Assembly: GCA_022600345.1 (NCBI GenBank)
Contig: JAHZKP010000039.1
Coordinates: 10,089 to 74,088, forward strand
DNA: 64,000 nucleotides
DNA from: Alphaproteobacteria bacterium
Lineage (GTDB): Bacteria; Pseudomonadota; Alphaproteobacteria; Rhizobiales; Hyphomicrobiaceae
Direction: 5' to 3'
The position numbers and the translations under genes were made by a program. Under the pieces are notes generated by a model. The model was given only the letters and a program-made list of their open reading frames with translations, searched no databases and was not told the origin of the DNA. Positions 33,033-38,617 of this stretch are shown one piece after another (the first letter of the stretch is position 1; every line of letters starts with the position of its first letter).

Positions 33033-33518
<486 letters not shown>

Positions 33519-33542
33519 ATTGTGGCTGGAGGGAAAAACCTA

Positions 33543-34904
33543 ATGAACTTACTCACACGAAATAACGGTCTTGGCTTCGCGGCACTGAGTGTGCTCGTGC
33601 TGTCCACTGTGCCTGGATTTGCGCAGGACGCAGCGGCGGTGGCCGTTGATAAGACTGCTGCCACGCCTGCCAACGTCGACTACATCCTGAATACCTTGTT
33701 GTTCTTGTTGGGCGGCTTCCTGGTCATGTGGATGGCTGCCGGCTTTGCGATGTTGGAAGCGGGCCTTGTGCGGACCAAGAACGTCGCCATGCAGTGCACC
33801 AAGAACATCGCACTGTTCTCGATTGCCGGCATGATGTTCTGGCTCGTTGGCTACAACCTCATGTATCCAGGTGACGGCGGTTGGATCGTTGCCGATTACT
33901 TCGGCAAGTTCATGCCGGTGACTATGCCTGAACCTGCCAAAGACACCGCCAATGCCTATTCGGTCGGGTCGGACTGGTTCTTCCAAATGGTGTTTTGTGC
34001 AACCACGGCGTCGATCGTCTCAGGCACGCTGGCTGAGCGCATCAAGCTGTGGCCGTTCCTGATCTTTGTCGTCATTCTGACCGGCTTCATCTATCCGATC
34101 CAGGGTTCCTGGGAATGGGGTACGGGCTGGCTCGACGATCTGGGCTTCTCTGATTTTGCCGGTTCGACGTTGGTGCATTCGACAGGTGGCTGGGCGGCTC
34201 TTGCTGGTGCGCTGCTGCTTGGTTCGCGTGCTGGTAAATATGGGCCGAACGGTTCCATCCACCCGATGCCGGGATCTTCCATGCCACTGGCGACGCTTGG
34301 TACATTCATCCTGTGGCTTGGCTGGTTTGGCTTCAACGGCGGTTCGCAGCTTGCAATGGGTACGCTTGAGAATGCTTCTGCCGTGTCGAAGATCTTCGTC
34401 AACACCAACATGGCTGCTGCAGCCGGTGTGATCGTTTCTATTGTTCTGACGCAGATCGTCTACGGCAAGGTCGACTTGACCATGGCGCTGAACGGTGCAC
34501 TGGCAGGTCTGGTGTCGATCACGGCCGAGCCGCTTACGCCGGCAATCTGGCAGGCGGTCATCATCGGCGGTGTCGGCGGTGTCATCGTGGTGTTCACGGT
34601 TCCGCTGCTCGACAAGCTTCGCATCGATGACGTTGTCGGCGCCATTCCGGTCCACCTGTTCGCAGGTATCTGGGGCACACTGATCGTGGCCTGGACCAAT
34701 ACGGATGCAAACCTTGGCGTGCAGGCGCTGGGTGTTGCGGCCATCGGCGCCTTCGTCTTCGGTACCAGCTTCGTGGTCTGGGCATTCCTCAAGTTTACCA
34801 TCGGGCTGCGTCCGACGCTGGAAGAGGAAACCGAAGGTCTCGACAAGGCCGAGATCGGACTGGAAGCTTACCCCGAGTTTGGTCAGGGCAGCCAGCGGAT
34901 CTGA
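33543..34904 (+). CDS. amtB: Ammonium transporter AmtB
   Basis: GFAMLEAG, DFAGSTLVH, WFGFNGGS and DDVVGAIPVH motifs (twin His present). Confidence 0.96.
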   Translation: MNLLTRNNGLGFAALSVLVLSTVPGFAQDAAAVAVDKTAATPANVDYILNTLLFLLGGFLVMWMAAGFAMLEAGLVRTKNVAMQCTKNIALFSIAGMMFWLVGYNLMYPGDGGWIVADYFGKFMPVTMPEPAKDTANAYSVGSDWFFQMVFCATTASIVSGTLAERIKLWPFLIFVVILTGFIYPIQGSWEWGTGWLDDLGFSDFAGSTLVHSTGGWAALAGALLLGSRAGKYGPNGSIHPMPGSSMPLATLGTFILWLGWFGFNGGSQLAMGTLENASAVSKIFVNTNMAAAAGVIVSIVLTQIVYGKVDLTMALNGALAGLVSITAEPLTPAIWQAVIIGGVGGVIVVFTVPLLDKLRIDDVVGAIPVHLFAGIWGTLIVAWTNTDANLGVQALGVAAIGAFVFGTSFVVWAFLKFTIGLRPTLEEETEGLDKAEIGLEAYPEFGQGSQRI

Positions 34905-35005
34905 TGGGGCGTTTACGAAATCCAGGTGCGCCGGCTATCGGCGCATCTGAGTGTGGTCCTTCCCCCGCCCGGCTCTGAAGCCGGCAAGAGGATCATGAGC
35001 GAGAG

Positions 35006-35036
35006 GCGTCCCGGGCTTCCAGCCCGGGGCGTTTTT
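35006..35036 (+). terminator. Intrinsic terminator after amtB
   Basis: CGTCCCGGGC-ttcca-GCCCGGGGCG followed by TTTTT. Confidence 0.7.
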
Positions 35037-35376: not shown

Positions 35377-38268
35377 TTATTGGATCTTGAACTCAATGCG
35401 CCGGTTCTTGGCGCGGGATTTTTTGGTCTTATTGGAGGCGATGGGTTTGGCTTCCCCAAAACCCTCGGCAGACAATCGAGAACGTTCGATGCCAGCCTTG
35501 GCGAGGTATTCCAGCACCGCGTTGGCGCGGGACTGTGAGAGTTTCTGGTTGAAGGCTTCTGAGCCCTGATTGTCGGTATGTCCTTCGATGCGGACACTGA
35601 GGCTTCCGCAGTCGGCTATCGTCGATGCGATCTGGTCCAGGATCTTGCTGGAAGATGCAGCCAATTCGGAGCTTGCCGTTTCAAACAGGATACGGCGCTT
35701 GGCCGCCAGTTTGGCAAGGTCGTCATTGCACCGGCCGCGCGCGGCGTCGTTTGCCGTATCGGGCTTGGCAACTGCAGCAACGCGCTTATTGGCTTCCCCA
35801 GATGAGGGATTATTCCAGGCGTCCCGGGCAGCTAGATAGCCCGCAAGATCGGTTGTGCTGGTTGCGGCAGATGCCGCAGGAGCACTGGTTGCAGGGGAAG
35901 CTGAGGCCGTCGACATCACCGGCTTGGTGCCCCAGGAGGCGCGTTCGGCGAACAGGGCTTTCAACTGTGATGTGATTTCGCCTTTGGGCACCGGGGTCAA
36001 GTTGGGTCGTGCAGGTGCCTCGTATTCATTGACGATCGGCGGCTTGGCATTGCGGCGCAGATTACGTGTTTTGGCGAGCCGCAGTTTCTTGCTGGCGCCT
36101 GCGGCCAACGGTGCACGGACCCGTTTCGGTTTCGGGCCCTTGCCCCAACTTTCACGCCGCGAGAACAGGCGGTTCAGGTCGCCAGCCAACACCAGGCCGC
36201 TGATTTTGGGTTCGGTTCCCCAGCCTTCACGCTCAGCCAACAGGGCTGTCAAAGCTGAACCGATCTGGCCGGGTGAAATATCGCCGACGACAGGCAGCGG
36301 GCGGTCCTCCAGCTCGTTGACGATCGCCGGTTTGGCATTGCCTGCGGCAACCTTGGACTTCGATTTGCCCAGTTTTTTAGGGGCTCCAGCCGCCAATGGT
36401 GCACGAATCTTCTTGGCTTTGGGTCCCTTGCCCCACCGGTCGCGGCGGGCAAGATAGGCTGTGAGATCACCGGCAACGATGGGGTCGGTATACTTGGGTT
36501 GCGTGCCCCAGCTTTCACGCTCGGTCAGCAAGGATTTCAGAGCGGTGGAAATTTCGCCCGGCGGAACCGCTGTGAGCAAGGGTAGTGCGGGTGCCTCATA
36601 TTCGTTGACGATAGGCGGTTTTGCGGGTTTGGCCGCAGCGCCTGCCTTGGCAAGCTTCAGCTTCCTTGGCGCGCCGGCGGCGAGCGGTGCGCGAACGACT
36701 TTGGCTTTGGGTCCCTTGCCCCAGCTATCGCGGCGCGCAAAGTAGCGCTTCAGATCGCCAGCAAAGCGTGGCCCACTCCAACTGGGTGCCTTCCCCCAGC
36801 CTTCCCGCTCGGTCAACAAGGATTGCAGCGCGGTTGAGATTTTGCCCGGCGGAACGGCTGTTAGCGTGGGTAGAGCGGGCGCCTCATATTCGTTGACGAT
36901 GGGCGGTTTTGCGGGTTTGGCCGCAGCGCCTGCCTTGGCAAGCTTCAGCTTCCTTGGTGCGCCGGCGGCAAGGGGTGCGCGAACGACCTCGGCTTTCGGT
37001 CCCTTGCCCCAACGTTCACGCCGCTTGAACAGCGAATCCAGACTTCCAGCAACCTTGTGGCGGCCGAGCGAAGGGCCCGACCCCCATGCTTCACGCTCCT
37101 TGAGAAGCGCATTGCGGGCGCGGACGATTTCAGCCTGAGATACCTGCTTGGGATTGGGTAGTGGTTCGGCAACGAATGGGTGAACAATCGTCTTGGCGGT
37201 GGGGCCGGCCTTGCTCAACCCTTCGGAATTCAGAGCAATGCGGCTTGGGGCACCGTTCGCCAGAGGTGCTTCGACCTTTTTAGCAGACGGTCCCTTGCCC
37301 CAATTATCGCGGGTCGAAAGGTAGTCGCCCACAGAGGCTGCCCCCAATGTCAGCATCACATTCGAAGTTGACGTTGAGGACGATGACGATGACGCCGAAG
37401 TTGGCGATGCCGTGGTTGCGCCGTCCGGTGATGGGCCGGTTCCCCAGGATTGACGCTCCTTTAAGAGTGCGGCGAGGGCGGTGCTGATATCCGATTTTTT
37501 CGGTTCGGTTACCTTTGGAAGCGGGCGGGATTGGGCTTCATTGACAATTGGCTTGGCTGGTGTGGTTTTTGCCGCGGGCGCTTGTGTTTTGGCGAACTTC
37601 GCTGGCGCACCTTTTGCCAGAGGTGCGGCGACCGGCTTGGCGGTGCCTGTGCCCCAGGTTTCTCTTAAGGACAGGAAGCCTGCAAGATTTCCGGTCGCGC
37701 CGGCGGTCAGATCAGCAATACCGCCTGAAACTTCCGGTGAAACAGATTTGGCAGGTGCCGCTGCCGTGTCGGTGCTCCCCGAGGGTCGGGTGCCCCAGGT
37801 GGCGCGTTGTTTCAGGAAACCTTCGAGGTCGCCGGTATTGGGTGCGGTCAGGGCTGAGACGCTGGCGGCGTCAATTTCGCTGGAATCGGGTTTATCTGCG
37901 GCTGCGGGTGCCGGTTTCTTATCGTTCTTTTGGGTGGTTTTCTTGAAGCCCAGTAGTTCCTGGATGTATTCCTGCAAGGCTGCTGCCACGCCCGGCTCGG
38001 TTTTGGCTTCTGCGGTTCGAACCACTTCCGGGTTTTTCGCATTGGCCAACCCGGTGTCCGAGTCTTCGCTTTGCCAAAGCGCATCGAATTGCGGCTGGCG
38101 GCCGGTGATGGCGTGAATTGCGGGACCGGTGTGGGCCAGCGTGCACGGTGTGAGTGCCGCGGTTGTCTTGCAGAAACTTTCAATTGTCGAAGTCGCAGGT
38201 CGGTGCTCGGCTGTCGCGGGGATCGCAATAGCGCAAAGCAATCCGGCCAAAAGTGGTGTACGCATCAT
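35377..38268 (-). CDS. Secreted OmpA-family (peptidoglycan-binding) protein with long tandem repeats
   Basis: Signal peptide; C-terminal ILFETAS...IEGHTDNQG...NQKLSQSRA...NRRIEF; central 288-bp (96-aa) repeats. Confidence 0.9.
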   Translation of the reverse strand: MMRTPLLAGLLCAIAIPATAEHRPATSTIESFCKTTAALTPCTLAHTGPAIHAITGRQPQFDALWQSEDSDTGLANAKNPEVVRTAEAKTEPGVAAALQEYIQELLGFKKTTQKNDKKPAPAAADKPDSSEIDAASVSALTAPNTGDLEGFLKQRATWGTRPSGSTDTAAAPAKSVSPEVSGGIADLTAGATGNLAGFLSLRETWGTGTAKPVAAPLAKGAPAKFAKTQAPAAKTTPAKPIVNEAQSRPLPKVTEPKKSDISTALAALLKERQSWGTGPSPDGATTASPTSASSSSSSTSTSNVMLTLGAASVGDYLSTRDNWGKGPSAKKVEAPLANGAPSRIALNSEGLSKAGPTAKTIVHPFVAEPLPNPKQVSQAEIVRARNALLKEREAWGSGPSLGRHKVAGSLDSLFKRRERWGKGPKAEVVRAPLAAGAPRKLKLAKAGAAAKPAKPPIVNEYEAPALPTLTAVPPGKISTALQSLLTEREGWGKAPSWSGPRFAGDLKRYFARRDSWGKGPKAKVVRAPLAAGAPRKLKLAKAGAAAKPAKPPIVNEYEAPALPLLTAVPPGEISTALKSLLTERESWGTQPKYTDPIVAGDLTAYLARRDRWGKGPKAKKIRAPLAAGAPKKLGKSKSKVAAGNAKPAIVNELEDRPLPVVGDISPGQIGSALTALLAEREGWGTEPKISGLVLAGDLNRLFSRRESWGKGPKPKRVRAPLAAGASKKLRLAKTRNLRRNAKPPIVNEYEAPARPNLTPVPKGEITSQLKALFAERASWGTKPVMSTASASPATSAPAASAATSTTDLAGYLAARDAWNNPSSGEANKRVAAVAKPDTANDAARGRCNDDLAKLAAKRRILFETASSELAASSSKILDQIASTIADCGSLSVRIEGHTDNQGSEAFNQKLSQSRANAVLEYLAKAGIERSRLSAEGFGEAKPIASNKTKKSRAKNRRIEFKIQ

Positions 38269-38617
38269 ACTTTATTTTCCTCCAGTTCGTTACAGCCGTT
38301 ATGCACCAGTTTAGCTTAATATATTCTGTTTATCTGGCTTGTTACGAGTCTGAGACTACTTGTTTTATTGTGTCCAGATAGGTTTTTCCTGGTTCGGCCC
38401 TTGTTTTTCTACTCCCGTGTCCGGCTTTTGTAGTTGACGGCATGGTGTTCAGGTTGTTGCAATCAGCGCTTCATCGGCGCCGGTCCAGACCAAGTAGTTG
38501 ATTGCATCGCGTTCGATATGTTCTACATTTCGCATTGTATAATGACATCAACTGAGCCCCCTTGGTCAAATCGAGGCGTTCAGTGTTGTCTGCTTAACAA
38601 ACTGAATTGCTGGTAGG

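What the first reader, a model, noticed from the sequence alone, without database searches (positions are those of the whole stretch)
35377..38268. 963-aa OmpA-domain protein built on an unrecognised 96-aa RxxWG tandem repeat
Seen: 14 occurrences of [LFY]-x-x-R-x-x-W-[GN]-x-x-P, alternating between two sub-units: (A) GDLxxY/LFxRRxxWGKGPKAxxxRAPLAAGA and (B) KPxIVNExEAPxLPxLxxVPPGxISTALxxLLxERExWG. The WGKGP codons recur at 37292, 37001, 36713, 36425 and 36137 (periods 291, 288, 288, 288). The central copies are near-identical at DNA level and the outer copies are degenerate with Ser/Ala-rich spacers, so the array is still expanding. It has a signal peptide and a canonical peptidoglycan-binding OmpA C-terminus. 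Inference: an extended periplasmic scaffold or molecular ruler tethered to the wall, whose Trp/Arg motifs bind a repeated ligand (glycan, lipid or partner protein). It is a candidate envelope or hypha/prostheca structural protein in a budding bacterium.
Basis: partly seen in the sequence, partly recalled or inferred. Interest (0 to 1): 0.72.

Follow-up and report, generated by a model that had tools for sequence, protein, structure and literature searches.

The report
Wall-anchored protein with novel RxxWG repeats
This is a real, conserved gene for an exported protein that binds the bacterial cell wall through a standard OmpA-type domain and carries 14 copies of a short, previously unnamed helical "RxxWG" motif on a long, mostly unstructured basic chain. 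It occurs in only a few genera related to Filomicrobium, and what the motifs bind is unknown.

Summary
ORF 35377-38268 (-) encodes 963 aa: a Sec-type signal peptide, 14 RxxW[G/N] motifs and a canonical OmpA_C domain (Pfam E 1.4e-23).

The array has six ~96-aa units, each an A motif followed 71 residues later by a B motif, plus one lone A motif at each end.

No Pfam, NCBIfam, PDB-sequence or Foldseek match covers the repeat.

The repeat is rare. Only 64 of 1.84 billion representative proteins match. In genomes it is found in 14 of 151 of one family (5 of 51 genera, including Filomicrobium) and nowhere else in the order or class samples. The gene always lies divergent from map-radC.

AlphaFold2 folds only the OmpA domain with confidence. 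The repeat region comes out as 14 isolated short helices, each ending in RxxW, joined by low-confidence basic Ala/Pro/Lys linkers (pI 10.4).

The conserved L, L, L/F, R and W residues lie on one helix face. Small secreted proteins carrying 1-3 motifs and a poly-Lys tail occur in the same genomes.

Best reading: a peptidoglycan-tethered, polyvalent scaffold that displays a helical binding motif. The ligand is unknown.

Two claims are overstated. "Near-identical copies, still expanding" applies to one pair of units at about 80% DNA identity. The proposed role in hyphae or as a ruler has no support and is disfavoured by the narrow distribution.

Verdict: a new variant of a known kind, of moderate interest.

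The parts
35377..38268 (-). Whole gene: 963-aa exported RxxWG-repeat / OmpA-like protein (P0001)
   Evidence: Open frame. 52 homologues, 50 with the same OmpA C-terminus on record. Orthologues sit at the same position, divergent from map-radC.
38279..38345 (-). Putative 5' control region: sigma-70-like match (38345-38318) and GGAGG Shine-Dalgarno (38283-38279), 10 nt before the ATG
   Evidence: Consensus scan, no more matches than in shuffles. Sequence read directly. Weak evidence only.
38209..38268 (-). Signal peptide, residues 1-20 (MMR, hydrophobic core, ATA|EH). SPase I type; not a lipobox, because Leu precedes Cys12
   Evidence: Sequence inspection. Conserved in orthologues. No predictor was run.
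37849..38208 (-). N-terminal head, residues 21-140: acidic (pI 5.3), with a conserved Cys pair (C33, C42) and a helix at 94-105 (LQEYIQELLG). Mostly low AF2 confidence
   Evidence: Other genera carry a different 4-Cys head.
37777..37842 (-). Lone A-type motif, residues 143-164 (TGDLEGFLKQRATWGTRPS)
   Evidence: Motif HMM 19.7 bits. AF2 helix 148-157.
37420..37707 (-). Unit 1, residues 188-283 (A motif R202, B motif R272). Divergent outer unit
   Evidence: Unit HMM hit. Its best relative is the positional orthologue in P0002, 63%.
37354..37419 (-). Ser/Thr-rich spacer, residues 284-305
   Evidence: Sequence. pLDDT below 50.
37063..37353 (-). Unit 2, residues 306-402 (R320, R392). Divergent outer unit
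   Evidence: 75% identical to the positional orthologue in P0003.
36775..37062 (-). Unit 3, residues 403-498 (R417, R488)
   Evidence: 78% aa and 80% DNA identity to unit 4.
36487..36774 (-). Unit 4, residues 499-594 (R513, R584). Reference unit of alignment A1
36199..36486 (-). Unit 5, residues 595-690 (R609, R680)
35911..36198 (-). Unit 6, residues 691-786 (R705, R776)
35779..35910 (-). Ser/Ala-rich spacer plus terminal lone A-type motif (TTDLAGYLAARDAWNNPSS, R815)
   Evidence: AF2 helix 808-819.
35380..35751 (-). OmpA_C-like peptidoglycan-binding domain, residues 840-963 (Pfam 861-956). GHTD...R signature (D899, R914) and conserved Cys pair C847/C887
   Evidence: Pfam E 1.4e-23. Invariant columns. 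AF2 pLDDT 90-98. PDB OmpA-like domains at E 2.5e-24.

Best explanation
The gene encodes a Sec-exported periplasmic protein. Its C-terminal OmpA-like domain holds it non-covalently on peptidoglycan. Its middle region of about 690 residues is strongly basic and largely non-globular, and it displays 14 copies of a ~20-residue helical motif with consensus L-x-x-[LY]-[LF]-x-x-R-x-x-W-G-x-x-P.

Each helix ends at the Trp-Gly. It puts L(-7), L/Y(-4), L/F(-3), the invariant R(0) and the invariant W(+3) on a single face. I read that face as a docking surface for a repeated envelope ligand.

Six motif pairs (A then B) are kept at a fixed 71-residue spacing, with conserved APLAxGA and PIV..P.P elements between them. 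The pairs themselves are joined by spacers of variable length.

The protein therefore works as a polyvalent scaffold or tether fixed to the wall. It ties many copies of one partner, or many sites on one extended partner, to the sacculus.

My favoured target, with low confidence, is a component at the periplasmic face of the outer membrane. On that reading the protein acts like a many-handed version of RmpM or Pal.

Shown here: export signals, the OmpA domain, the motif architecture and its conservation, the narrow taxonomic range, and the predicted lack of a globular fold. Inferred: periplasmic location, ligand binding by the motif, and the identity of the ligand.
For: 1. The OmpA_C domain is intact. 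Pfam gives 83.5 bits. G896, H897, T898, D899, R914 and others are invariant across 45 homologues. AF2 pLDDT is above 90. Solved OmpA-like domains, including Omp38, YfiB, Pal and RmpM (1r1m), match at E 2.5e-24 to 2e-11.
2. There is a signal peptide, and conserved Cys pairs sit in the head and in the OmpA domain. Both fit an oxidising, extracytoplasmic compartment.
3. R, W and G are invariant in 88 units from 5 genera, while the linkers vary. All 14 copies are detected by a 22-residue motif HMM.
4. AF2 on the full-length protein gives 14 isolated helices, each ending at RxxW, with linkers at pLDDT below 50. AF2 on a single unit with an 88-sequence alignment gives two helices only and pTM 0.29.
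5. Positions -7, -4, -3, 0 and +3 fall within +/-60 degrees on a helical wheel. The hydrophobic moment is low (0.05-0.38) because the Arg sits in the hydrophobic stripe. This points to specific recognition rather than membrane insertion.
6. The motif also works outside the array. There are OmpA proteins with motif-only repeats (P0075, P0076). There are also small secreted proteins with 1-3 motifs plus a poly-Lys tail, found in the same genomes, including this one at C3:33373-33570.
7. The gene is single-copy here, sits at a conserved position in all 5 genera, and varies between 3 and 8 units.
8. In a genus that lacks the motif, an OmpA-domain gene lies in the same place upstream of map. It carries a different, Ala/Glu/Lys-rich helical spacer. 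This suggests a spacer-plus-anchor design that evolves freely.
Against: - No ligand, localisation or expression data exist.
- The 71 +/- 1-residue A-to-B spacing is strict. The non-helical elements are nearly invariant: A29, P30, L31, A32, G34, A35. Single-unit pLDDT is about 80. Together these could mean that the unit is a real fold AF2 cannot assemble, rather than beads on a string.
- Gene neighbourhoods are housekeeping and give no functional hint.
- The preference for an outer-membrane target over peptidoglycan itself rests only on the two-ended design of the large and small proteins.
Confidence: 0.5

Rival explanations
1. The ~96-aa A-B unit is a compact domain with a new fold that binds peptidoglycan itself, either glycan or stem peptide. 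The protein is then an array of wall-binding modules, like LysM or SPOR arrays, that staples or coats the sacculus, with the OmpA domain as one more wall contact.
For: - The A-to-B spacing is fixed at 69-73 residues in 197 motif pairs across genera, while the B-to-A spacing drifts.
- 88 units align in 101 columns with few indels, and the non-helical elements APLAxGA, PIV and PxP are nearly invariant.
- Single-unit AF2 gives mean pLDDT 80.6.
- Arg plus Trp is a common pairing in sites that bind sugars and carboxylates (general knowledge).
Against: - pTM is 0.29 and there are only two short helices in 96 residues.
- In the full-length model the linkers fall below pLDDT 50.
- Foldseek finds no fold match.
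- The motif also occurs alone, at other spacings, in P0075, P0076, P0096 and the small secreted proteins, so it does not need the unit.
- A direct-coupling analysis gave no helix A to helix B contact signal, though it was underpowered.
Confidence: 0.2
2. The repeat region has no outside ligand. It is a self-interacting spacer. Either the helices bundle into a rod of set length (a true ruler), or the R/W 'stickers' on flexible basic spacers make a wall-tethered gel or condensate that fills and conditions the periplasm.
For: - Multivalent Arg and aromatic stickers separated by low-complexity spacers.
- Net charge of +54 over the repeat region.
- A related genus has a plain Ala/Glu/Lys helical spacer in the OmpA gene at the same position upstream of map.
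Against: - AF2 predicts no helix-helix packing.
- A precise one-face motif with an invariant Arg, conserved over 5 genera, is more specific than sticker chemistry needs.
- Unit number varies from 3 to 8 between relatives, which does not suit a ruler of fixed length.
Confidence: 0.12
3. The helices are amphipathic membrane-binding segments. They lay the basic chain on the inner leaflet of the outer membrane or the outer leaflet of the inner membrane, linking membrane lipid directly to peptidoglycan.
For: - Basic flanks (WGKGPKAK), a Trp at the helix end, and high overall pI.
- Trp and Lys/Arg are typical of segments that sit at membrane interfaces (general knowledge).
Against: - The hydrophobic moment of the 14 helices is 0.05-0.38, mostly below the mean of 14-mers in the protein's own OmpA domain (0.26). 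The reason is that the invariant Arg lies in the middle of the apolar stripe.
- B-type helices are flanked by acidic residues (ERESWG).
Confidence: 0.1

Closest known systems
OmpA C-terminal-like (PF00691) peptidoglycan-anchored periplasmic proteins: Pal, YfiB, YiaD, OprF-C, A. baumannii OmpA/Omp38
   Same: The C-terminal 120 residues are a clear member. The Pfam score is above the gathering cutoff, the GHTD...R signature is present, the alpha/beta fold is confidently predicted, and solved members match down to E 2.5e-24.
   Different: There is no beta-barrel, no lipobox and no TM anchor. About 85% of the protein is a repeat region found in none of these. All NCBIfam equivalog hits cover only the OmpA domain and score below their cutoffs.
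Neisseria RmpM (class 4 protein; PDB 1r1m)
   Same: It is a soluble periplasmic protein. Its non-globular N-terminal part holds outer-membrane protein complexes, and its C-terminal OmpA-like domain binds peptidoglycan (my knowledge of the literature). The domain is homologous at E 2e-11. It is the best analogy for how this protein may work.
   Different: RmpM has a single short N-terminal binding segment, not 14 repeated helical motifs. I detected no sequence similarity outside the OmpA domain. Binding to outer-membrane proteins is untested here.
TolA / TonB central domains and Braun's lipoprotein Lpp (periplasm-spanning spacers)
   Same: Extended, Pro/Ala/Lys-rich or helical periplasmic segments that connect envelope layers. 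The idea of a length-defining tether comes from these.
   Different: There is no membrane anchor and no covalent link motif. The unit number varies between relatives. The chain would be much longer than the periplasm is wide. No homology.
Arrays of wall-binding repeats (LysM, SPOR, PG_binding_1, choline-binding CW_binding_1, GW modules)
   Same: Tandem modules with conserved aromatic and Gly residues that give polyvalent attachment to a periodic wall polymer.
   Different: No Pfam match at E <= 1. Those modules are folded domains or beta-hairpin solenoids, whereas this protein is predicted to have isolated alpha-helices in disordered linkers.
Alphaproteobacterial PRK09039-type 'peptidoglycan-binding proteins' (coiled-coil spacer plus OmpA-like domain)
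   Same: They share the spacer-plus-OmpA-anchor design. In a sister genus the gene at the same position upstream of map has an Ala/Glu/Lys-rich helical spacer of this general kind.
   Different: NCBIfam PRK09039 models match only the OmpA domain and score far below cutoff (69.7 against 388). There is no N-terminal TM anchor and no coiled coil.

Membership tests
OmpA_C-like domain family (Pfam PF00691) | Profile match above the curated gathering score | tested here: met
   83.5 bits against a cutoff of 27.2, residues 861-956, full profile 1-98.
OmpA_C-like domain family (Pfam PF00691) | Conserved Asp and Arg of the G-H/Y-T-D ... R-A motif. These contact the diaminopimelate of peptidoglycan in solved complexes (A. 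baumannii OmpA, from my knowledge) | tested here: met
   G896, H897, T898, D899, N907, S911, R914 and A915 are invariant in 45 homologues. The domain is homologous to 3td3 (Omp38) at E 1.9e-18. I assumed residue-to-residue equivalence from the motif and did not superpose structures.
OmpA_C-like domain family (Pfam PF00691) | Alpha/beta sandwich fold | tested here: met
   AF2 pLDDT 90-98 over residues 840-963, with elements in the order H841-856, H871-886, E892-897, H904-924, E932-938, H949-954, E958-962.
OmpA_C-like domain family (Pfam PF00691) | Actual binding to peptidoglycan | not testable with these tools
   Needs a sacculus co-sedimentation assay.
Classical OmpA/OprF porins | N-terminal 8-stranded membrane beta-barrel | tested here: not met
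   No OmpA_membrane or other barrel family in Pfam at E <= 1. AF2 shows no strands before residue 892 apart from two single-residue bridges.
Pal / YfiB / YiaD-type OmpA lipoproteins | Lipobox [LVI][ASTVI][GAS]C at the end of the signal peptide | tested here: not met
   Cys12 is preceded by G-L-L, and an AxA site (ATA|E) follows at residues 18-20. NCBIfam equivalogs score below cutoff: YiaD 124 against 175, YfiB 106 against 128, Pal 77 against 125.
MotB / PRK09039 TM-anchored peptidoglycan-binding proteins | N-terminal TM anchor (plus plug or coiled coil) and a full-length profile match | tested here: not met
   Matches cover only the last ~105-140 residues and score far below cutoff. The N-terminus is a cleavable-type signal by inspection.
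Known wall-binding or peptide-binding repeats (LysM, SPOR, PG_binding_1-3, CW_binding_1/2, SH3b/GW, Sel1/TPR, WG_beta_rep) | Profile match to the repeat region | tested here: not met
   Pfam at E <= 1 returns OmpA only for P0001 and for 10 relatives. The unit profile against PDB sequences gives nothing below E = 1. Foldseek against the PDB gives nothing.
RmpM-like OMP-complex stabilisers | Non-globular N-terminal segment that binds outer-membrane proteins | not testable with these tools
   Only the OmpA-like domain is comparable (1r1m, E 2.1e-11). Partner binding needs experiments.

The most novel reading that the evidence does not exclude
The RxxWG helix is a new periplasmic recognition module that defines a small clade-specific system. 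One component is a wall-anchored polyvalent protein. The others are several small secreted proteins with 1-3 motifs and poly-Lys tails. All bind the same, still unknown, periodic envelope partner. Together they would set envelope architecture in Filomicrobium-like bacteria through multivalent contacts, possibly gel-like. That would be a new way of coupling the outer layers to peptidoglycan in bacteria that lack Lpp.
Probability: 0.12. Interest if true: 0.7.

Novelty: new variant of a known kind. Interest (0 to 1): 0.42.

Why it matters
Alphaproteobacteria lack Braun's lipoprotein and use other means to tie the outer membrane to the wall. Lineage-specific OmpA-domain proteins are candidates for that job, but most are annotated only as "OmpA family protein".

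This one carries a sharply conserved short helical motif that no database describes. The motif appears in three forms: a polyvalent wall-anchored array, motif-only OmpA proteins, and small secreted proteins. All are confined to five related genera.

If the motif binds a defined partner, it gives a compact, testable handle on envelope organisation in a poorly studied group of marine prosthecate bacteria. A 22-residue peptide with R-to-A and W-to-A controls would be enough to start. It would also be a worked example of short-linear-motif logic in the periplasm.

If it does not, this remains one more lineage-specific low-complexity OmpA protein.

Tried and rejected
- The search for related loci with the unit alignment failed because no stretch was conserved enough. 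With the protein it found only one Filomicrobium MAG.
- The unit profile against PDB sequences gave one chance hit at E 1.2. Foldseek of the unit model against the PDB gave one hit at E 8.5.
- The single weak hit outside the family in the order scan (G345, E 2.4e-4) lies in an ORF that reads as an aldehyde dehydrogenase by its sequence (my reading; no family search was run). I count it as a false positive.
- P0082, P0089 and P0093 from the representative search look like translations of unrelated repetitive DNA, and I ignored them. I also left the weak P0084 hit (6790 aa, no matched stretch) out of account.
- Neighbourhoods gave no functional clue. The large gene lies between glnK-amtB and map-radC. 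The small genes lie beside a conserved 431-aa gene whose neighbours read, by sequence inspection only, as the proB-proA / nadD-rsfS-rlmH housekeeping cluster.
- The idea that the helices are lipid-binding amphipathic segments was weakened by their low hydrophobic moments.
- A mean-field direct-coupling analysis on 204 units (Meff 146) was dominated by two gap-prone columns and gave no usable contacts.
- Literature searches (Hyphomicrobium + OmpA + repeat + peptidoglycan; Filomicrobium + genome) found nothing on this protein.
- Earlier findings of this scan had nothing on this protein or on look-alikes.
- I considered that the ORF might be an artefact of GC-rich repeats, since long ORFs also run on the opposite strand. 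I rejected this because the minus-strand frame carries the OmpA domain and is conserved in 5 genera.
Full report
**1. What is in the sequence**

The window has one long ORF on the minus strand, 35377-38268, of 963 aa. A GGAGG sits 10 nt before the ATG, inside a 350-bp AT-richer gap that separates the gene from the divergent map gene.

The product begins MMRTPLLAGLLCAIAIPATA|EH. That is a basic n-region, a 15-residue hydrophobic core and an AxA site. It is not a lipobox, because Leu precedes the Cys. No signal-peptide predictor was available, so this is inspection only, but the segment is conserved in orthologues.

Pfam finds a single family, OmpA (PF00691), at residues 861-956 with 83.5 bits against a cutoff of 27.2. 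All NCBIfam hits cover only this domain and score below their equivalog cutoffs.

**2. The repeat**

The core RxxW[G/N] occurs 14 times and accounts for 14 of the 16 Trp residues. From the protein's own composition I expect about 0.1 chance matches.

A 96-residue HMM built from the four central copies finds six full units in the protein: 188-283, 306-402, 403-498, 499-594, 595-690 and 691-786. A 22-residue motif HMM finds all 14 motif copies.

Each unit has four parts:
- an A motif (GDLxxYLxRRxxWGKGP);
- a nearly invariant V-x-APLAxGA;
- a linker that varies in sequence, then PIV[HN]-x4-P-x-P-x-L-x-x-V;
- a B motif (I-x-x-A-L-x-x-L-L-x-E-R-E-x-W-G-T-x-P).

One lone A-type motif lies before the array (R155) and one after it (R815). 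Ser/Thr/Ala-rich spacers lie at residues 284-305 and 787-800.

TRF and the repeat finder both see the 288-nt period.

At the DNA level only units 3 and 4 are close. They are 80% identical over 288 nt, with a 150-nt core at 92% and a longest exact run of 56 nt. They differ at 19 synonymous and 21 non-synonymous codons. The other central pairs are 56-64% identical. "Near-identical" is therefore an overstatement.

**3. Relatives and range**

A word-indexed search of 5.8 billion proteins found 52 homologues. Fifty of them carry the same C-terminal OmpA domain on record. Where named, they are called only "OmpA family protein" from Filomicrobium sp. or Hyphomicrobiaceae MAGs. They hold 3-8 units each.

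An exhaustive HMMER search of 1.84 billion representative proteins with the unit profile found only 64 proteins at E <= 1e-3.

Whole-genome searches gave the following:
- In the window's own genome (4.09 Mb, 99.9% complete), only this gene has units.
- In its family, 14 of 151 genomes are positive, from 5 of 51 genera. The 22-residue motif HMM hits exactly the same 14 genomes.
- In the order, 401 genomes gave only two positives, both of this family, plus one false positive that reads as an aldehyde dehydrogenase.
- In the class, 401 genomes from 308 genera gave nothing beyond the window's own genome.

One genome of the same genus is the MAG labelled Filomicrobium sp., so the window is from that genus.

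The gene always lies divergent from map-radC. glnK-amtB on the other side is kept within the genus. Two genomes carry tandem paralogues.

I then looked at six genomes of the family that lack the motif. One has an OmpA-domain gene in the same place upstream of map, but its spacer is a plain Ala/Glu/Lys-rich helical region (298 aa). In the other five, map has different neighbours.

**4. How the array evolves**

The outer units have positional orthologues in related proteins at 63-75% identity. These are closer than any unit in the same protein.

Some central units show the opposite pattern. They are closest to a sister unit in the same protein:
- P0001 units 3 and 4, 78%;
- P0002 493 and 685, 78%;
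- P0004 601 and 791, 80%;
- P0011 494 and 589, 74%.

The best match of these units in any other protein is 56-69%.

Central units are therefore duplicated or homogenised within lineages, and unit number changes between close relatives. The divergence of the best pair here argues against very recent growth.

**5. Structure**

AlphaFold2 on one unit with an 88-unit alignment gave mean pLDDT 80.6 but pTM 0.29. The only regular structure was two helices, at unit residues 8-17 and 72-88. Foldseek found no fold match in the PDB.

AlphaFold2 on the whole protein with 45 homologues folded only residues 840-963 with confidence (pLDDT 90-98, the OmpA domain). In the repeat region it drew 14 isolated helices, each ending at RxxW. 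B-type helices score about 80-90 and A-type helices about 60-70. Everything between them scores below 50.

The repeat region has pI 10.4, a net charge of +54, and is 60% Ala/Pro/Gly/Ser/Thr/Lys.

On a helical wheel the conserved positions -7, -4, -3, 0 (Arg) and +3 (Trp) fall within +/-60 degrees. That makes one face. Because the Arg lies inside the apolar stripe, the hydrophobic moment is low, 0.05-0.38. This looks like a specific docking face, closed by a Gly C-cap, and not like a lipid-seeking amphipathic helix.

One observation pulls the other way. The A-to-B spacing is 69-73 residues in 197 motif pairs across genera (mode 71), while the B-to-A spacing drifts from 22 to 58. The 88 units also align almost without indels. 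The unit is therefore under a length constraint. Either it folds, or folds on binding, in a way AF2 does not capture, or the two helices must reach two sites a set distance apart. A direct-coupling analysis was too weak to decide.

**6. The motif outside the array**

The representative search and the genome scans also turned up three other forms of the motif:
- OmpA proteins whose spacers hold only B-type motifs separated by Ala/Pro linkers (P0075, P0076).
- A small secreted protein made of nine YLAQRDAW[QN] copies (P0096).
- A family of small secreted proteins with a signal peptide, AGRPALSTxSTxDLIAQREKWG, an Ala/Lys/Pro spacer, often a second A-type half-unit with its APxAAG, and a poly-Lys tail.

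The small proteins occur in the same genomes as the large gene. This genome has a 58-aa version on another contig, at C3:33373-33570.

Their genes lie beside a conserved 431-aa gene. By sequence inspection only, its neighbours read as the proB-proA / nadD-rsfS-rlmH housekeeping cluster, so the context says nothing about function. None of these proteins matches a Pfam or NCBIfam family.

The elementary module is therefore the ~20-residue helix. The 96-residue unit is a fixed pairing of two such helices.

**7. Interpretation**

The best-supported reading is an exported protein that is tethered to peptidoglycan and is largely non-globular. It displays many copies of a helical recognition motif, so it acts as a polyvalent scaffold or tether at the wall.

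The large protein joins motifs to an OmpA domain. The small ones join motifs to a polycationic tail. Both look two-ended, which suggests that they link a motif partner to an anionic wall or membrane layer.

I favour an outer-membrane-side partner, by analogy with RmpM. That analogy rests on my knowledge of the literature. The domain homology to 1r1m is shown. This preference is weak, and peptidoglycan itself is the main alternative.

Unit number varies, the chain is far longer than the periplasm is wide, and 46 of the 51 genera sampled in the family lack the motif.

**8. Verdict**

The C-terminal domain is an ordinary OmpA_C member. The repeat and its motif are undescribed, rare and confined to one clade. 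I class this as a new variant of a known kind, namely periplasmic proteins anchored by an OmpA-like domain. Interest is moderate. It would rise if a defined partner for the RxxWG helix were found.

Noticed in passing
own genome, contig C3:33373-33570 (-), outside the window: A 58-aa secreted protein (MIRTATALTLGATLAFAPAAFA|GDKKVGDRPALTTESTEKLIEQRSKWGTKPVKTYKD) carries a single RxxWG motif. Longer relatives with 1-3 motifs and a poly-Lys tail occur in the other motif-positive genomes, beside a conserved 431-aa gene whose neighbours read, by inspection only, as proA and nadD.
   Followed up: partly
L048:969-1865 (+) (G016:C2, a genus without the motif): Upstream of map, in the same place as the repeat gene, lies a 298-aa protein: signal peptide, Ala/Glu/Lys-rich helical low-complexity spacer (AEAQRKADQEA-like repeats), then an OmpA domain. 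It may be a positional counterpart with a different spacer.
   Followed up: partly
relatives P0013, P0022, P0026, P0030, P0040 etc. (N-termini): In other genera the head before the repeats is a different small domain with four conserved Cys (LPxWNIxEIC..GQC...W..VP..FR..CL....YD.SYRLLS). Only OmpA is on record in the precomputed Pfam annotation of these proteins. Filomicrobium proteins have a two-Cys head (FCKTTxSLxPC) instead.
   Followed up: no
window 35855-36457, 36461-36745, 36842-37138, 37481-38116 (+): Long ORFs (94-211 aa) run antisense to the repeat gene. They look like by-products of the GC-rich repeat, not genes.
   Followed up: no
window 35002-35036: A strong GC-rich hairpin (16 pairs) followed by a T-run lies between the convergent amtB and the repeat gene. 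It is a likely terminator for amtB and may work in both directions.
   Followed up: no
window 33093-34904 (+): A glnK-amtB pair (PII protein and ammonium transporter, named by sequence inspection) lies next to the gene. This side of the synteny is kept only within the genus.
   Followed up: partly
L024 (G051:C5) and L029 (G021:C51): Two tandem paralogues of the repeat-OmpA gene (for example 542 aa and 659 aa) stand at the locus in some relatives.
   Followed up: partly
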